A DNA stretch of 26,478 nt from assembly GCA_016195585.1 (NCBI GenBank), contig JACPZJ010000178.1:1-26478 (forward strand). The letters are read 5' to 3'. The translations under genes were made by a program, and so were the position numbers. Each line of letters opens with the position of its first letter. The first letter of the stretch is position 1. This document shows, in pieces, positions 36 through 6,069 of this stretch. Under the pieces are notes generated by a model, which worked only from the letters and a program-made list of their open reading frames with translations, had not been told where the DNA came from and searched no databases. Origin of the DNA: Nitrospirota bacterium. Lineage in GTDB: Bacteria; Nitrospirota; CAKKRA01; 9FT-COMBO-42-15.

Positions 36-854
36 CTATTTTATATGACAGGTTGTGCACAATGCGCTGGCAGCATTAGACTTTCTTAAGAATGTTGCAT
101 AATCCCTGCCATTTGGCGCAAGCTGGTTGGCAGGCGTGCCAAATTCCGCTGTTGTTCCATGCGGGTTGTGGCAAGATGCGCACTCTACCATGAATACTCC
201 GCCTGTTGGATATAACTTTACCTCATTATCATCTGCCCTGGTGTTAGCGGTCTCCTCAAACCATAAAGCAGTTGAGGAAGAACCACCCGGTATATTAAAT
301 TGTGGGTCAAGTGTTGTTCCGCCATAATTTGCATATCTTATTGATATTGGATGGTCGTCAGAAAGGTTCTGTGTAAGGTTTGTTATCCATCTATTCCCTG
401 CCCCTTCTGGCATTGTGTTGTCAGTAGGAGAGTTTGGGAGACCATTAAATGTCCAGCCCTGGCTTGTTGGTGTGGTGCTAAAATTGCCGGAGCCTGGTGC
501 ATTCCTTATTGCATCTAATGCAATTGTGCCATCATGGCAGGATAGACAAGCTAAAGAAATACCGCCAGGCTGACCTGTTGGTGCATCCATGGTTGTGCTG
601 GTATATGGTGTATAAGTACCTGCTGTTGCCAATGCCCTGTTCCAGAGGGGTGCATCTGTTGTACCACCGTGAGGCGTATGGCAAAATACGCAGACTTCTG
701 AGGTTCCACTGGTATAAACATCTGCATATGGTGTGCTCTCTGCTACCTCAACATGGCTGGAGCTCAGATTGTGCCTGCTCATTGTAATCATTGCATAGGC
801 AGATGATGCATAGAGCATGCTGAAAAGCACTGTTAATAATAAAAACCTTCTCAT
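36..854 (-). CDS. omcE: OmcE-family tetraheme c-type cytochrome (nanowire-type), Sec signal peptide
   Basis: Four CxxCH (CVFCH, CLSCH, CASCH, CTTCH). Motif order matches G. sulfurreducens OmcE as I recall it: RHNLSS..EVCVFCHTPH..PLWNR..ISLACLSCHDG..NLSDDHPI..ECASCHxxH..FLR..SALCxxCH. Start moved from 902 to ATG 854 because AGGAGGAG (861-868) precedes it and a signal peptide follows (MRRFLLLTVLFSMLYASSAYA). The symbol denotes family, not proven orthology. Confidence 0.85.
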   Translation of the reverse strand: MRRFLLLTVLFSMLYASSAYAMITMSRHNLSSSHVEVAESTPYADVYTSGTSEVCVFCHTPHGGTTDAPLWNRALATAGTYTPYTSTTMDAPTGQPGGISLACLSCHDGTIALDAIRNAPGSGNFSTTPTSQGWTFNGLPNSPTDNTMPEGAGNRWITNLTQNLSDDHPISIRYANYGGTTLDPQFNIPGGSSSTALWFEETANTRADDNEVKLYPTGGVFMVECASCHNPHGTTAEFGTPANQLAPNGRDYATFLRKSNAASALCTTCHIK

Positions 855-1055: not shown

Positions 1056-1133
1056 ATATATAGCGCCATTTATATTACTTATCTAATTGAAAATATTAAA
1101 AATTCCTTTTCTCTCGCCATCAAAAACCCCACC

Positions 1134-1151
1134 TGCTACTATTTAGTAGCA
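1134..1151. promoter_or_regulatory. 18-bp palindromic motif, copy 2
   Basis: TGCTACT-ATTT-AGTAGCA has perfect 7-bp arms and is 14/18 identical to copy 1. Confidence 0.5.
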
Positions 1152-1186
1152 AGCTACTTCTCTCCACCTAAAAATCCTTTTCCATT

Positions 1187-1322: not shown

Positions 1323-2381
1323 TCAATTCTTCCCTGCTGCCTTTACCTTTTGTGCATTATATTTTTCACCCATATACTGATATATATTTATCCGCCTGTT
1401 ATACTGGTCTGCCACATATATCTTATCATCCTCGTCTATAAACATCCCTGCAGGAAGCCACAGCTCCCCTGCCTTATTTCCCATATTTGCAAAAAACAGG
1501 AGGATTCTCCCTTCCTGATCAAATATCTGGATATTATTAAAGGCCGCATCAACCACATATATATGGCCTTCGCTGTCTAATGCTATGCCTTTTGGCTTTG
1601 AAAACTGGCCGTATGATGTACCCACCTCGCCAAACTTCTTTATGAACTTCCCGTCTGCATCAAATATCTGCACGCGAAAGTTCATTGTATCCATTATATA
1701 TACCTTATCATCTTTTTTATCAATAAAAATATTGGTCGGATAATTGAACTCGCCATCATTTGTTCCCCTTTTGCCTATTTCAAAGAGCTTATCGCCTTTA
1801 GCATTAAATACAAAAATCTTATTGAGCTTTGTGTCTACCACATAAAGCCTGTCAAGCTTTTCATTTAATGCTATACCAACAGGCTGCTCTAAATCCCCCT
1901 TTTTGCCGATTCCAAGAATGAATTTTGTGTCTTTATCGTATACAACAACCCTGTTCTGCACCGTGTCTGTTACAAATATCCTGCCTGTGCTGTCTGTTGT
2001 TATGCCTGCTGGTTTTGTTAATACCCCGCTTCCCTCGTTTCCAAGTATGACAAACTTGTTTGCAACATAATCAAAGATAAGAACCTTACCTAATCCTGTG
2101 TCTGCTACATATACCCTGCCGTCTTTATCTACATGGATGCCATAAGGTTTTCTTAGACCCTCAATCACATCCGCGCCAAGCACTGCTGTCTTTAGTGTTT
2201 TGCCAATACTTTCCTTCTCTATATCCCTGGAGGTTGAGAGTGTGCCTATATATCTTATTTTTGGTTCATCCGGCGGCAGAGGCCAGACTAATTCTCCCTC
2301 TGTCTTTATTCCAGCACAACCGCTTACGAGCAATAAAGATATTGCTGTTATTAAATTTTTATAAATCCCTCCTTGATACAT
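1323..2381 (-). CDS. NHL-repeat six-bladed beta-propeller lipoprotein
   Basis: Six NHL repeats (KPYGIHVD, KPAGITTD, QPVGIALN, YPTNIFID, KPKGIALD, LPAGMFID), lipobox LVSG-C and N-terminal WPLPPDEPKIRYIG motif. Start is uncertain (see findings); first in-frame ATG given. Confidence 0.9.
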   Translation of the reverse strand: MYQGGIYKNLITAISLLLVSGCAGIKTEGELVWPLPPDEPKIRYIGTLSTSRDIEKESIGKTLKTAVLGADVIEGLRKPYGIHVDKDGRVYVADTGLGKVLIFDYVANKFVILGNEGSGVLTKPAGITTDSTGRIFVTDTVQNRVVVYDKDTKFILGIGKKGDLEQPVGIALNEKLDRLYVVDTKLNKIFVFNAKGDKLFEIGKRGTNDGEFNYPTNIFIDKKDDKVYIMDTMNFRVQIFDADGKFIKKFGEVGTSYGQFSKPKGIALDSEGHIYVVDAAFNNIQIFDQEGRILLFFANMGNKAGELWLPAGMFIDEDDKIYVADQYNRRINIYQYMGEKYNAQKVKAAGKN

Positions 2382-2446
2382 TTTATGAATTATATTATAA
2401 CTAAAACCATCTTGCAACTTAAATCTCAAGACTTACGCATGCCCTT

Positions 2447-3310
2447 TTATTTTATATGGCATGTAGTGCATAATGCGCTGCTGCTATTAGATTTCCTTAA
2501 AAATGTCGGATACAGATTTACACCATCAGATGAAAGCGTTCCGTGCGGATTATGGCACGATGCGCATTGTACTTTATATCCGCTTGCGCCATCGCTATAA
2601 AGTTTTATCTCATTATCATCAGCCCTGTTTGCCATTCCTCCTGTTTCAAACCACGCAACCCTTCCATTGCTGTTTGTTGGTTGATTAAACATTGGATCCT
2701 GTGCAGGTGTTGGATAGTTCATTGAAATAGGGTGCTGGTTGCTTAGGTTCTGAGTAAAAGCTGCAACTTCATATGCAGGCGCAATACCGCTACCTTGAAA
2801 ATGGCAAAGTAGACAACTACCAGTCGCAGATGTTGTCTGCCCTGATTGAGCTAAGCCAAAGTGATTACCTGCTGTATTAGGACCCCAATCAGTAGAGCCA
2901 CCTGGCGTATAGTAGCCTGAGCCTGGCTTATTTATAATAGAGTCTACTGCTATTGTTCCATCATGGCATGATAGACATGCCAATGATATGCCATCTGGCT
3001 GTCCTACGATTGTATCCATTGTAGTGCTTGAATAAGGGGTGTAATTTCCTGTTGCAGGCAATGTCCTGTTCCATAGCGGGGCGTTTGTGGCAGCGCCATG
3101 GGGTGTATGGCAGTACACACAAACTTCACCATAATCATTATACAAAGTGCCTTTTACACCGAGCATTAAGGCATTAGCATATGGCACCATAAGATTGTGC
3201 CGTGTATCCGTAATACCACCTCTATTTGTAACTGGAGCTGATATTGCCTGAGATGCTAATAGACCAATTGATGCGAAGCTTATTGATATTGCAAGTAAAA
3301 ACCTTTTCAT
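2447..3310 (-). CDS. OmcE-like pentaheme c-type cytochrome
   Basis: Five CxxCH (CVYCH, CLSCH, CLLCH, CASCH, CTTCH), the same OmcE scaffold motifs, a signal peptide and SD GGAGG. Confidence 0.9.
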   Translation of the reverse strand: MKRFLLAISISFASIGLLASQAISAPVTNRGGITDTRHNLMVPYANALMLGVKGTLYNDYGEVCVYCHTPHGAATNAPLWNRTLPATGNYTPYSSTTMDTIVGQPDGISLACLSCHDGTIAVDSIINKPGSGYYTPGGSTDWGPNTAGNHFGLAQSGQTTSATGSCLLCHFQGSGIAPAYEVAAFTQNLSNQHPISMNYPTPAQDPMFNQPTNSNGRVAWFETGGMANRADDNEIKLYSDGASGYKVQCASCHNPHGTLSSDGVNLYPTFLRKSNSSSALCTTCHIK

Positions 3311-3468
3311 GTTCTATCCCTCCGTAAGCGATAATTTTTACCTACACATCCCCTACTTTTACTGCTTGTCTATATTATTTTTCTGGCACAACAAATATCA
3401 CATTTTTTTAAGCATGTCAAGTAATAAATTTAATTTATTAATATTGTTATAAAAATTTATTATATGCC

Positions 3469-4260
3469 TTATTTAATATGACAAGTCATGCAAAGTGCGC
3501 TGTCCTTCTTGGATGTCCTTAAAAACGGGTCTCTTCCCTCTAAATTCTGCTCATCAGGGTTGTGCGGGTCATGGCATGAAGCGCACTGAACCTTGCCGCT
3601 AAATAATCTTATTCCATTTGGAAATATGCCTGTCCCTGGCGGTATATTGAACTTCGGGTCCTGGAATACTGTTGGATAGCTCATTGAAACAGGATGGTCA
3701 TCTGATAGATTTTTTGTAAGATACTTAATTGTTGCATCATGCGCGCCATATAATCCTGCAAGCTCGCCTTGAGGGGTATGGCACTTGCCGCAGCTATCAC
3801 CTGATGTCTCAGTGCTCATCCTGTAATGAACGCCTGTATCCACCCATCCTGTATTAGGCGTATTAATAATTGAATCCACAGCAACTGTGCCGTCATGGCA
3901 GGAAAGACATGCAAGGGAAACGCCGTCAGGCGCGCTTGGCATGCTTACATCAATAGTTGTGCTTCTGTACATGCTGTAGCCAGAAGCGCTTGGTAGTGCG
4001 TGATTCCATAGTGGAGCTACATCACTTGAGCCATGAGGTGTATGGCAGTACACGCATACCTCGCCGTAATCATTATAAGTTACGCCATTCATTGCGCCAA
4101 CACCGCCCTTTGCAATTGCCCTCTGGCTAAGATACGATAAATCATGCTTGGAACGAAGGATTGTGCCGCTTTGTCCTGGTATTGCCTTGAAGATCAGGTA
4201 TATTGCTAAGAATAAGAGGATGTAGAATATTATATTCTCAATGAAGCTTAGGTACTTCAT
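3469..4260 (-). CDS. OmcE-like pentaheme c-type cytochrome with hydrophobic N-terminal signal/anchor
   Basis: Five CxxCH (CVYCH, CLSCH, CGKCH, CASCH, CMTCH) plus KHDLS and NLSDDHP. ATG 4260 follows GGAGAGG; ATG 4290 is the alternative start. Confidence 0.88.
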   Translation of the reverse strand: MKYLSFIENIIFYILLFLAIYLIFKAIPGQSGTILRSKHDLSYLSQRAIAKGGVGAMNGVTYNDYGEVCVYCHTPHGSSDVAPLWNHALPSASGYSMYRSTTIDVSMPSAPDGVSLACLSCHDGTVAVDSIINTPNTGWVDTGVHYRMSTETSGDSCGKCHTPQGELAGLYGAHDATIKYLTKNLSDDHPVSMSYPTVFQDPKFNIPPGTGIFPNGIRLFSGKVQCASCHDPHNPDEQNLEGRDPFLRTSKKDSALCMTCHIK

Positions 4261-4299
4261 TACGAGATACCTCTCCCCCCTGTAATTCATAACACAGTT

Positions 4300-4327
4300 A
4301 TTATAGTATTTATTTCTGCCATGTCAA
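4300..4327 (-). promoter_or_regulatory. sigma70-type promoter
   Basis: TTGACA-16nt-TATAAT, both hexamers perfect consensus. Confidence 0.7.
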
Positions 4328-4905: not shown

Positions 4906-6069
4906 ATGAAAAGCAAAGGATTGTTAGGGATGTTGTTTTCTTTTTTTGTTGCGGTAACCATTATTTTTGCACCAGCAGCACATGCAATTGTATTAAGCGG
5001 CATTCCATACGCTTGGGGACAAGGCAGCTATGGTCAGATCGGTGATGGAACGTCATTCAACAGGTACACACCTGTTCAAGTTAGTGGACTAACAGGAGTA
5101 ATAGCTATTAAAGGGGGAGGGTTTCACACAGTTGCCCTAAAGAATGACGGTAATGTCTGGACATGGGGAGCAAATTGGTGGGGACAGCTTGGTGATGGAA
5201 CAACGACCGATAGATATACCCCTGTTCAGGTTAGTGGGCTAACAGGTATAATAGCCATTGCAGGGGGAGGTGAACATACCATTGTCTTAAAGAATGATGG
5301 TACGATCTGGGGATGGGGACGAAATCAGTTTGGCGAGCTCGGCGATGGAACAACAACCAATAGAGCCACCCCTGTTCAGGTTAGTGGACTAACAGGTATA
5401 ATAGCCATTGCAGGGGGATATTGGCATACCATCGCCCTTAGAAATGATGGTACAGTTTGGGTATGGGGACGGAATCAGTTTGGCGAAATTGGTGATGGAA
5501 CTTTCAATAATATTAGGCCTACCCCTGTTCAGGTTAGTGGGCTAACAGGTGTGGTAGCCATTGCAGGGGGAGGCGTACATACCATTGTCCTTAAAAATGA
5601 CGGCACAGTCTGGGCATGGGGGAATAATGAGTTTGGCCAACTTGGTAATGGAACAATATCATATTATAACCCAACTCCTGTTCAGGTCAGTGGGCTTGTA
5701 GGCGTAACTGCTATTGCTGGTGGTGAAGGTTATCATACAATTGCCTTAAGAAATGATGGAACAGTTTGGGCTTGGGGTAAAAATGACTATGGTCAGCTTG
5801 GTGATGGAACAACGACCCATAGAAATATCCCTATCCATGTCAGTGGACTTACAAGCATAGAAGCTATTGCTGGTGGGGGAAATCATACTATTGCTTTAAA
5901 GAATGACGGAACTGTCTGGGCATGGGGACAGAATAATGACTGGGGCCAGCTTGGAGACGGAACAGTGGTCAATAGATATACTCCTGTTCAGGTTAGCGGG
6001 CTTACAGGAGTAGTAGCTATTGACGCTGGTTTTTATCATACTCTCGCTATTAAACACCCGTGCCCTTAG
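4906..6069 (+). CDS. Secreted RCC1/BLIP-II-like seven-bladed beta-propeller
   Basis: Seven 50-52 aa repeats (WxWGxNxxGQLGDG..[17 protein letters not shown].HT..LKNDG), signal peptide ending AAHA, SD AAGGAGG. Confidence 0.93.

What the first reader, a model, noticed from the sequence alone, without database searches (positions are those of the whole stretch)
2447..4260. Pentaheme OmcE variants: a fifth heme plus its own His inserted into the variable loop
Seen: paralogs 2 and 3 carry an extra CxxCH (CLLCH, CGKCH) between heme motif 2 and the NLSxxHP motif, each preceded by a new His (NHF 16 aa before; VHY 12 aa before). Paralog 2 has exactly five non-motif His for five hemes, consistent with all-bis-His ligation. 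Inference: if the four-heme chain is retained, the fifth heme would be an off-axis, solvent-exposed branch point for electron entry, exit or cross-linking, analogous in concept to the exposed heme of OmcZ. I know of no characterised five-heme OmcE-fold filament.
Basis: partly seen in the sequence, partly recalled or inferred. Interest (0 to 1): 0.78.

Follow-up and report, generated by a model that had tools for sequence, protein, structure and literature searches.

The report
Five-haem OmcE-family nanowire cytochrome paralogs
Two neighbouring genes in a groundwater Nitrospirota genome encode five-haem versions of OmcE, the four-haem protein that Geobacter polymerises into conductive filaments; this five-haem class is real, widespread and conserved, has already been noted and modelled in print, but has never been studied experimentally.

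Summary
Observation confirmed. Window 2447-3310(-) and 3469-4260(-) each encode an OmcE homologue with five CxxCH motifs. The extra one (CLLCH, 2801-2815; CGKCH, 3778-3792) lies between haem motif 2 and the NLSxxHP histidine, and a new His sits 16 or 12 residues upstream.

It is not a local oddity. In 130 five-haem homologues the extra CxxCH is invariant and the extra His is present in 128. Neither occurs in the 15 aligned four-haem relatives. A Tyr in motif 1 (CVYCH against CVFCH) co-varies with them.

Both AlphaFold2 models superpose on OmcE (7TFS; Z 13.2 and 13.1), and all eight OmcE haem ligands are kept.

About a third of the closest 50%-identity clusters are five-haem, as are 37 of the 80 best species loci, across several phyla.

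Soares et al. noted pentahaem OmcE homologues in 2024. No experimental characterisation was found.

I could not measure the haem geometry because no coordinates were available. Polymerisation was not shown, since the dimer prediction gave no answer.

This scan earlier noted a 4/4/5-haem OmcE array in a Syntrophales genome. Verdict: new member of a known, still uncharacterised kind.

The parts
2447..3310 (-). P0001: pentahaem OmcE-family cytochrome, 'long' CLxCH type, 287 aa, with a Sec signal peptide
   Evidence: 5 CxxCH; 7TFS E=7.9e-19; AF2 pLDDT 84.6; VIA Z 13.2 with 192 of 202 OmcE residues aligned
2801..2815 (-). Extra (third) haem-binding motif CLLCH of P0001 (C166-H170)
   Evidence: the column is Cys/Cys/His in 130 of 130 five-haem homologues and absent in 14-15 of 15 four-haem ones
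2861..2863 (-). H150 of P0001, candidate distal ligand of the fifth haem
   Evidence: His in 128 of 130 five-haem homologues (one Met, one Arg) and in 0 of 15 four-haem ones
3113..3115 (-). Y66 of P0001 (the Tyr of CVYCH), a residue that co-varies with the fifth haem
   Evidence: Tyr in 141 of 143 five-haem proteins against Phe in 101 of 122 four-haem proteins. N58, D59, Y60, V122 and I125 also separate the two classes
3197..3199 (-). H38 of P0001, the N-terminal His that corresponds to His31 at the N-terminus of the OmcE chain and is the presumed inter-subunit ligand
   Evidence: invariant in 145 of 145 sequences; aligns with the first modelled residues of the 7TFS chain. The inter-subunit role is inferred from PMC12954529 and PMC13712944
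3469..4260 (-). P0002: pentahaem OmcE-family cytochrome, 'short' CGxCH type, 263 aa (an alternative start lies at 4290)
   Evidence: 5 CxxCH; AF2 pLDDT 81.7; VIA Z 13.1 with 179 of 202 OmcE residues aligned. The careful tree places it in the short five-haem group (98/88)
3778..3792 (-). Extra (third) haem-binding motif CGKCH of P0002 (C157-H161)
3826..3828 (-). H145 of P0002, candidate distal ligand of the fifth haem
1323..2429 (-). NHL-repeat beta-propeller lipoprotein, 17 bp downstream of P0001; a conserved partner gene of OmcE-family genes
   Evidence: NHL E=9e-31; lipobox LVSGC; a homologue lies next to the cytochrome gene in 65 of 80 species loci
36..854 (-). P0003: tetrahaem OmcE-family paralog (272 aa; 9 His) in the same array
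   Evidence: 56% identical to P0001. The same gene order is found in relatives L084 and L086

Best explanation
P0001 and P0002 are secreted c-type cytochromes of the OmcE family. They belong to its widespread pentahaem subfamily and represent two different subtypes: long CLxCH and short CGxCH.

Each keeps the complete OmcE set of four CxxCH motifs and four distal His. That set includes the N-terminal His, which in OmcE is believed to complete a haem of the neighbouring subunit. The insulated four-haem chain and head-to-tail polymerisation are therefore probably retained.

A fast-evolving surface loop between haem motif 2 and the NLSxxHP histidine carries a fifth CxxCH and its own His. It most likely holds a fifth bis-His haem. 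This haem probably packs against the flank of the haem-1 motif and the helix after haem motif 2, beside the main chain rather than within it. Such a haem would give a lateral point for electron entry, exit or cross-talk, an OmcZ-like 'leaky' feature on an OmcE scaffold.

Shown here: homology, fold, conservation and co-variation of the ligand set, prevalence and gene context. Inferred: haem occupancy, lateral and exposed position, filament formation and physiological role.
For: Homology and fold. phmmer to OmcE 7TFS gives E=7.9e-19, and to the D. soudanensis OmcE bundle 9YUQ E=5.7e-16. Foldseek against the PDB finds only 7TFS (E=4e-9). VIA-align gives Z 13.2, rmsd 3.9 A, 192 of 202 residues for P0001, and Z 13.1, rmsd 3.1 A, 179 of 202 for P0002. 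Because nearly the whole OmcE core superposes as one body, a haem wedged between the existing ones is unlikely.

Ligands. H38, H193, H256 and all four OmcE CxxCH motifs are invariant in 145 sequences, and H71 is kept in 144 of 145. The fifth CxxCH is present in 130 of 130 five-haem proteins and H150 in 128 of 130. Both are absent from the four-haem relatives. The commonest His count is exactly twice the haem number in both classes (66 of 134 five-haem proteins, 52 of 118 four-haem).

Pocket. The class-specific residues outside the loop are N58, D59, Y60 and Y66 (before and within haem motif 1) and V122 and I125 (after haem motif 2).

Periphery. Among close orthologues the loop is only 36% identical against 82-87% for the core, with only the ligands fixed. 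The loop is modelled at pLDDT 74-89.

Prevalence. 46 of the 150 best 50%-identity cluster representatives have five motifs, and 37 of the 80 best species loci do.

Stand-alone use. The genome of Hydrogenophaga sp. MI9 holds the five-haem gene as its only family member.

Context. An NHL propeller gene is adjacent in 65 of 80 loci. In relatives L084 and L086 the cluster continues with a SurA-like chaperone, a porin-like 612-aa protein and a large multihaem cytochrome. This matches the omcE cluster described in PMC13712944.

Literature. AlphaFold3 models of five-haem OmcE-like proteins keep the insulated chain and place the extra haem in a more solvent-accessible spot (PMC13712944).
Against: No haem-containing model or coordinates could be obtained here. 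Fe-Fe distances, exposure and the in-line versus lateral question were therefore not tested directly.

The homodimer prediction with four haems gave no answer (score 0.02), which counts neither for nor against binding.

No RNA data exist for this organism, so expression is unknown.

No porin or secretion component is visible in the window, and the porin-like gene of relatives was not found in this 79%-complete genome.

The class-specific residues cluster near the haem-1 motif. If haem 1 lies at a subunit end (my assumption, not checked here), a position at or near the subunit interface is not excluded.
Confidence: 0.6

Rival explanations
1. The five-haem proteins are OmcE-fold cytochromes that do not polymerise. 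They would be soluble periplasmic or surface-attached monomers or small oligomers that relay electrons, perhaps docking on the NHL propeller. The fifth haem would simply add an electron-exchange site.
For: Polymerisation was not supported by the only test available, which gave no answer. No porin is visible in the window. Four c7-type and two class-I cytochromes nearby point to a periplasmic relay. In Hydrogenophaga sp. MI9 the neighbours are a PepSY_TM protein and an ABC permease rather than an obvious nanowire cluster.
Against: The N-terminal His is invariant in 145 of 145 sequences, and many members have exactly two His per haem. If that His acts across subunits as in OmcE, a monomer would leave one haem incompletely ligated. 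Nearly the full OmcE core is kept (Z 13). The NHL, porin-like and SurA-like context of relatives resembles omcE clusters.
Confidence: 0.22
2. The five-haem paralogs are minor subunits (tip, branch, adaptor or anchor) of a filament whose major subunit is the co-encoded four-haem paralog P0003. The exposed haem would sit where the wire meets minerals, cells or the cell-envelope conduit.
For: The order short-5, long-5, NHL, 4-haem is conserved in three Nitrospirota genomes. 12 of 37 species loci with a five-haem gene also carry a four-haem paralog within 8 kb, in several phyla. [quoted passage not shown]
Against: 25 of the 37 five-haem loci have no four-haem paralog within 8 kb. Hydrogenophaga sp. 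MI9 has the five-haem gene as its only family member, so the class can work alone. The ninth His of P0003, which would fit an anchor, is not conserved among its orthologues. No heteromer test was run.
Confidence: 0.12
3. The fifth haem lies in line. It would extend the conductive chain at the subunit junction to five haems per repeat, rather than branching from it.
For: The class-specific residues lie next to the haem-1 motif, which I assume to be at one end of the subunit's chain. The position was not measured here.
Against: The OmcE core and the N-terminal His are fully retained. Published AlphaFold3 models of the class keep the four-haem chain and place the extra haem outside it. The loop evolves quickly, like a surface element.
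Confidence: 0.05
4. The extra CxxCH is a chance or degenerate motif that binds no haem.
For: Haem occupancy has not been measured for any member.
Against: Only 0.011-0.016 motifs per protein are expected by chance. The motif is invariant in 130 of 130 homologues, its partner His is present in 128 of 130, and a Tyr co-varies with both. A ResB-like cytochrome c maturation gene is also in the window.
Confidence: 0.01

Closest known systems
OmcE tetrahaem nanowire of Geobacter sulfurreducens (PDB 7TFS) and the Desulfuromonas soudanensis OmcE bundle (PDB 9YUQ)
   Same: Clear sequence homology (E=7.9e-19 and 5.7e-16). Same fold (Z 13.2 and 13.1). Same four CxxCH motifs and four distal His, including the N-terminal one. 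Similar length. A beta-propeller lipoprotein gene lies next door.
   Different: A fifth CxxCH with its own His sits in the loop after haem motif 2. Tyr replaces Phe in motif 1. The organism is a groundwater Nitrospirota, not a Desulfuromonadia. Filament formation is not shown.
'5-heme OmcE-like proteins' described from PSI-BLAST and AlphaFold3 by Petersen et al., mBio 2026 (PMC13712944); pentahaem OmcE homologues also noted by Soares et al., BMC Genomics 2024 (PMC11492766)
   Same: Same definition: OmcE-like sequence, similar length, five CxxCH motifs, mostly uncultured bacteria of several phyla. Same proposed meaning: insulated chain kept, extra solvent-accessible haem, a blend of OmcE and OmcZ.
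   Different: Their accession list was not available to me, so I cannot say whether these two subtypes were among their models. Added here: the conserved distal His, the co-varying Tyr and other residues, three sequence groups, prevalence figures, co-occurrence with four-haem paralogs, and the NHL pairing.
OmcZ octahaem 'leaky' nanowire of G. sulfurreducens (PDB 8D9M)
   Same: Functional analogy only: one solvent-exposed haem per subunit branching off the main chain (PMC12954529).
   Different: No sequence or fold match was detected. OmcZ has eight haems, all ligated within one subunit, and so no inter-subunit His.
Pentahaem sPHC / ExtKL family and Thermochromatium tepidum cytochrome c552, related to the archaeal nanowire AvECN (PMC11976967)
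   Same: Five-haem proteins in which four haems superpose on a tetrahaem nanowire subunit and one is extra.
   Different: In that family the extra haem is number II of five; here it is number III. No member of that family, nor AvECN or PcECN, appeared in the structure searches. It is a different lineage.

Membership tests
OmcE family (nanowire tetrahaem cytochromes) | Significant sequence similarity to OmcE | tested here: met
   7tfs_A E=7.9e-19; 9yuq E=5.7e-16
OmcE family (nanowire tetrahaem cytochromes) | OmcE fold | tested here: met
   Z 13.2 (192 of 202 residues aligned, rmsd 3.9 A) and Z 13.1 (179 of 202, rmsd 3.1 A). The next-best PDB chain scores Z 3.4
OmcE family (nanowire tetrahaem cytochromes) | Four conserved CxxCH motifs plus four conserved distal His, including the N-terminal His | tested here: met
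   the motifs and H38, H193 and H256 are invariant in 145 sequences; H71 is kept in 144 of 145. PMC13712944 names these as the family's conserved features
OmcE family (nanowire tetrahaem cytochromes) | Four haems per subunit | tested here: not met
   five CxxCH motifs in both proteins. They are a pentahaem subfamily, not canonical OmcE
OmcE family (nanowire tetrahaem cytochromes) | Head-to-tail polymerisation into an extracellular filament | tested here: inconclusive
   the homodimer prediction gave no answer (score 0.02). There is no experimental handle
OmcE family (nanowire tetrahaem cytochromes) | Gene cluster with beta-propeller lipoproteins, further multihaem cytochromes and a large outer-membrane beta-barrel | tested here: inconclusive
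   An NHL lipoprotein is present and its pairing is conserved, and other cytochromes are present. No barrel lies in the window, whose contig ends 35 bp past P0003. Relatives have a porin-like 612-aa gene, which was not found in this 79%-complete genome
Five-haem OmcE-like class (Petersen et al. 2026) | OmcE-like sequence of similar length with five CxxCH motifs | tested here: met
Five-haem OmcE-like class (Petersen et al. 2026) | Four-haem chain retained, with the extra haem solvent-accessible beside it | not testable with these tools
   The tools return no model coordinates and accept at most four small molecules. Only indirect support exists: rigid-body core superposition, a fast-evolving loop and class-specific residues
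OmcZ family | Homology to OmcZ | tested here: not met
   no OmcZ hit by sequence or by fold
sPHC / ExtKL / T. tepidum c552 pentahaem family | Extra haem is motif II of five; fold related to AvECN | tested here: not met
   Here the extra motif is III of five. No such chain reached Z >= 2. The family description comes from PMC11976967

The most novel reading that the evidence does not exclude
The conserved array of short five-haem, long five-haem, NHL propeller and four-haem genes encodes a modular wire. An insulated four-haem OmcE filament would be combined with five-haem subunits that act as exposed tips, branch points or cell-proximal adaptors. This would be the 'tip protein with more solvent-exposed hemes' that Petersen et al. 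looked for and did not find in omcE operons. Alternatively, the five-haem proteins form a third, 'leaky OmcE-fold' class of nanowire of their own. That class would be used well outside metal reducers, for example by groundwater Nitrospirota and by lineages such as Gallionella, Sulfuritalea and Hydrogenophaga, possibly for electron uptake.
Probability: 0.2. Interest if true: 0.8.

Novelty: new member of a known kind. Interest (0 to 1): 0.42.

Why it matters
Cytochrome nanowires are known at atomic resolution from only a handful of organisms, and every OmcE-fold structure has four insulated haems. A five-haem OmcE-fold filament would combine an insulated core with a regularly spaced exposed haem. 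That bears on how wires exchange electrons sideways with minerals, shuttles, partner cells or each other.

This window does not discover the class, which was already flagged in 2024 and 2026. It does offer a compact natural test case: both five-haem subtypes and a four-haem paralog sit in one conserved array. The analysis also yields a sharper sequence signature for annotation: the extra CxxCH, its His, and CVYCH with an upstream Tyr.

Finally, it identifies a cultured isolate, Hydrogenophaga sp. MI9, that carries a five-haem gene as its only family member. The experiment could be done there.

Tried and rejected
1. Complex prediction on a P0001 homodimer. The run with four haems gave 'no answer' (score 0.02). 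I use it neither for nor against polymerisation.

2. Direct geometry (Fe-Fe distances, solvent exposure).

3. Gain versus loss of the fifth haem.
- The quick 131-row tree needed 10 state changes and placed P0001 beside four-haem P0003 (SH-aLRT 95).
- A tree holding P0001 together with the large five-haem clade had a higher likelihood (by 88.8 log units, p-AU 0.97), so the quick tree was a poor optimum.
- The careful 46-row tree gives three well-supported five-haem groups on an unresolved backbone.
- The direction and number of events remain open.

4. P0003 as a nine-His 'anchor' subunit. Its extra His (H34) is Gln in about half of the orthologues, so I rejected it as a conserved feature.

5. 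Expression. Only groundwater DNA runs hold the stretch, and there are no RNA runs.

6. The rest of the cluster in the same genome. The porin-like protein of relatives was not found, and only a weak Wzy/TPR match appeared elsewhere. The genome is 79% complete, so this does not show absence.

7. Literature. The OmcE structure paper (PMC9357133) is not held, and the supplement of PMC13712944 is not held. As a result, which His bridges subunits in OmcE, and which accessions Petersen et al. modelled, could not be checked.

8. Other pentahaem families (sPHC/ExtKL, T. tepidum c552) and OmcS or OmcZ as the closest relatives. I rejected these because no significant sequence or fold match was found.
Full report
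**What is in the sequence**

Three paralogous genes lie on the minus strand:
- P0003, 36-854, 272 aa, four CxxCH motifs.
- P0001, 2447-3310, 287 aa, five CxxCH motifs.
- P0002, 3469-4260, 263 aa, five CxxCH motifs.

P0001 is 56% identical to P0003 and 46% identical to P0002.

An NHL-repeat beta-propeller gene with a lipobox (1323-2429) starts 17 bp after P0001.

In both five-haem proteins the additional motif lies between haem motif 2 (CLSCH) and the NLSxxHP histidine. It is CLLCH at residues 166-170 (window 2801-2815) in P0001 and CGKCH at 157-161 (window 3778-3792) in P0002. A His precedes each: H150, 16 residues upstream, and H145, 12 residues upstream.

P0001 has ten His, five in motifs and five elsewhere. 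P0002 has twelve. A CxxCH arising by chance in proteins of this composition is expected 0.011-0.016 times per protein.

**What family it is**

- phmmer against all PDB chains finds OmcE of Geobacter sulfurreducens (7TFS, E=7.9e-19) and the Desulfuromonas soudanensis OmcE bundle (9YUQ, E=5.7e-16). Nothing else is significant.
- Pfam sees only generic multihaem models such as Paired_CXXCH_1.
- The P0001 AlphaFold2 model, built on a 145-sequence alignment (A2), has pLDDT 84.6 and pTM 0.82. The P0002 model, on a 113-sequence alignment (A3), has pLDDT 81.7 and pTM 0.76.
- Foldseek against the PDB returns only 7TFS (E=4e-9).
- The Foldseek-independent scan of 48,161 chains gives 7TFS Z 13.2 (192 of 202 residues, rmsd 3.9 A). 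The next chain is OmcS at Z 3.4.
- P0002 gives Z 13.1 against 7TFS (179 of 202 residues, rmsd 3.1 A).

Both alignments start at the first modelled residues of the OmcE chain. There OmcE has its N-terminal His (TKHDL), and the window proteins have TRHNL and SKHDL.

Both proteins are therefore OmcE-fold cytochromes with essentially the whole OmcE core retained, plus extra residues.

**Is the fifth haem site real?**

I aligned 130 five-haem and 15 four-haem homologues (A2). The results were:
- The four OmcE CxxCH motifs and the distal His H38, H193 and H256 are invariant. H71 is His in 144 of 145.
- The fifth CxxCH is present in 130 of 130 five-haem proteins.
- H150 is His in 128 of 130 five-haem proteins (one Met, one Arg) and in none of the 15 four-haem proteins.
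- The middle residue of haem motif 1 tracks the class. CVYCH occurs in 141 of 143 five-haem proteins and CVFCH in 101 of 122 four-haem proteins.

A mutual-information scan finds further class-specific positions outside the loop. N58, D59 and Y60 lie just before haem motif 1; Tyr60 occurs in 129 of 130 five-haem proteins, against mostly Thr in four-haem ones. V122 and I125 lie just after haem motif 2.

The commonest His count is exactly twice the number of motifs in both classes. This fits all-bis-His ligation with no spare His.

Among close orthologues of P0001 the loop (residues 133-185) is only 36% identical, against 82-87% for the core. Only the His and the CxxCH are fixed.

My reading, which is an inference: the loop is a surface element whose job is to hold a haem, and that haem packs against the flank of haem motif 1 and the helix after haem motif 2.

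**Where the fifth haem sits**

The structure tool returns no coordinates.

The indirect evidence favours a lateral, exposed position:
- Nearly the entire OmcE core superposes as one rigid body. That would be hard to achieve if a haem were wedged between existing chain haems.
- The loop evolves like a surface loop.

Published AlphaFold3 models of '5-heme OmcE-like proteins' report exactly this arrangement. [quoted passage not shown]

I could not verify that these two subtypes were among their models, because the supplement is not held. The class-specific residues sit next to haem motif 1, which I assume lies at one end of the subunit's chain. A position near the subunit junction is therefore not excluded.

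**How common it is, and its history**

- A profile of the three paralogs finds 4,804 proteins at E<=1e-3 and 379 at E<=1e-30 in the library of 50%-identity representatives.
- Of the best 150 representatives, 46 have five motifs in the same arrangement and 100 have four.
- In the 90%-identity collection, 99 of the 122 sequences tallied have five motifs. These 122 are the 120 listed hits plus the window's own proteins.
- Among one-genome-per-species contigs, 37 of the 80 best loci carry a five-haem gene.

Those 37 loci come from Nitrospirota, Nitrospinota, Acidobacteria, Firmicutes, and many Beta- and Gammaproteobacteria. The proteobacteria include Sulfuritalea, Aromatoleum, Thiobacillus, Gallionella, Rubrivivax, Chromatiales and the isolate Hydrogenophaga sp. 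MI9.

A careful tree of 46 sequences, built without the loop columns, shows three well-supported five-haem groups:
- a short CGxCH group that contains P0002 (support 98/88);
- a long CLxCH group, mostly proteobacterial (100/100);
- P0001 with its Nitrospirota orthologue (98/96), placed next to the four-haem P0003 group (89/88).

The backbone of that tree is unresolved. A constraint test does not reject joining P0001 to the other five-haem clades (p-AU 0.97).

The His, the CxxCH and the Tyr are positionally homologous in all three groups. I therefore regard the module as ancient, followed by losses or exchanges. 'Inserted into the loop' describes the structure, not a demonstrated evolutionary event.

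**Context**

The window also encodes:
- RCC1-type and Reg_prop beta-propellers;
- two class-I cytochromes;
- four c7-type cytochromes;
- TonB-like and very large TPR proteins;
- a ResB-like cytochrome maturation protein.

The contig ends 35 bp beyond P0003.

In two related Nitrospirota genomes the order short-5, long-5, NHL, 4-haem is conserved. It continues with a Wzy_C/TPR protein, a SurA-like chaperone, further unannotated genes, another propeller-sized gene (NHL-type in L086) and, in L084, a large multihaem cytochrome. Language-model features liken the 612-aa unannotated protein of L084 to beta-barrel porins; this is a lead only.

This resembles the omcE cluster of Desulfuromonadia, which comprises two multihaem cytochromes, two beta-propeller lipoproteins, OmcE and a large beta-barrel (PMC13712944).

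A close homologue of the NHL propeller lies directly beside the cytochrome gene in 65 of 80 species loci: 29 of 37 five-haem loci and 36 of 43 others. The pairing is thus a family-wide module.

Twelve of the 37 five-haem loci also carry a four-haem paralog within 8 kb. The Hydrogenophaga sp. MI9 genome, in contrast, has the five-haem gene as its only family member. The class can evidently function alone.

The DNA occurs only in groundwater metagenomes, and no RNA run holds it.

**Mechanism proposed**

- Shown: OmcE homology and fold; a complete OmcE ligand set; and a conserved, co-varying fifth CxxCH-plus-His module.
- Inferred with good confidence: five covalently bound, bis-His ligated haems.
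- Inferred with moderate confidence: head-to-tail polymerisation through the invariant N-terminal His. OmcE filaments have an interfacial haem ligated by His from two subunits (PMC12954529; PMC13712944).
- Inferred with moderate confidence: a lateral, exposed fifth haem that acts as an entry, exit or cross-link point.

The dimer prediction gave no answer and is not used as evidence.

The rivals are: a non-polymerising relay cytochrome; a minor tip, branch or anchor subunit of a four-haem filament; an in-line fifth haem; and a dead motif.

**Comparison with what is known, and novelty**

These proteins meet the sequence, fold and ligand criteria of the OmcE family. They fail the criterion of four haems per subunit. 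They fit the '5-heme OmcE-like' class defined in silico by Petersen et al. (2026) and mentioned by Soares et al. (2024, PMC11492766).

They are not related to OmcZ, with which they share a functional analogy only. They are also not related to the sPHC/ExtKL/c552 pentahaem family, where the extra haem is number II rather than III (PMC11976967).

The concept itself, however, is already published. This scan also noted a 4/4/5-haem OmcE array in a Syntrophales genome earlier.

My verdict is a new member of a known but experimentally uncharacterised kind, of moderate interest. The value lies in the sharpened sequence signature, the prevalence figures, the conserved three-paralog array and the pointer to a culturable carrier.

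Noticed in passing
window 1323-2429 (-); loci L004-L083: A close homologue of the NHL beta-propeller lipoprotein lies directly beside the OmcE-family gene in 65 of 80 species loci, both five-haem and four-haem and across phyla. It looks like an obligate partner, perhaps for assembly or docking, and its role is unstudied.
   Followed up: partly
window 4300-4327 (-): A perfect 12/12 sigma-70 consensus (TTGACA-16-TATAAT) lies just upstream of P0002. It overlaps the alternative start codon at 4290, which favours the ATG at 4260 as the true start. A terminator-like hairpin at 1131-1154 (-) lies between the NHL gene and P0003, so P0003 may be transcribed separately. These are consensus matches only.
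   Followed up: no
window 753-755 (-), H34 of P0003: The four-haem paralog has nine His for four haems, the count Petersen et al. proposed for a filament 'anchor' subunit. The extra His is Gln in about half of its orthologues, so it is not a conserved feature.
   Followed up: yes
L084 13286-20882; L086 13260-18803: In related Nitrospirota the array continues past the point where this contig ends. The next genes are a Wzy_C/TPR protein (O-antigen-ligase-like, possibly for filament glycosylation), a SurA-like chaperone, further unannotated genes and another propeller-sized gene (NHL-type in L086). L084 also has a 612-aa porin-like protein and a multihaem cytochrome of more than 870 aa. The porin-like gene was not found in this 79%-complete genome.
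   Followed up: partly
L084 7903-8793: One relative has an Xre-like antitoxin and RES toxin pair where this window has the RCC1-repeat propeller gene (4906-6069). The spot between the cytochrome sub-clusters is therefore variable.
   Followed up: no
L021, L027, L030, L031, L035, L037, L043, L048, L072: Larger cytochromes with 6 to 14 CxxCH motifs begin with the same OmcE-type opening (CVFCHTPH followed by CLSCH). They sit a few kb from the small OmcE-family genes. The OmcE N-terminal module appears to be fused to longer haem arrays.
   Followed up: no
L013 3993-11616 (Hydrogenophaga sp. MI9): In this isolate the sole five-haem gene and its NHL partner are flanked by a PepSY_TM membrane protein and a double BPD_transp_1 ABC permease. 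I read these families, from my own knowledge, as hinting at a link to iron handling rather than to a classical metal-respiration island.
   Followed up: no
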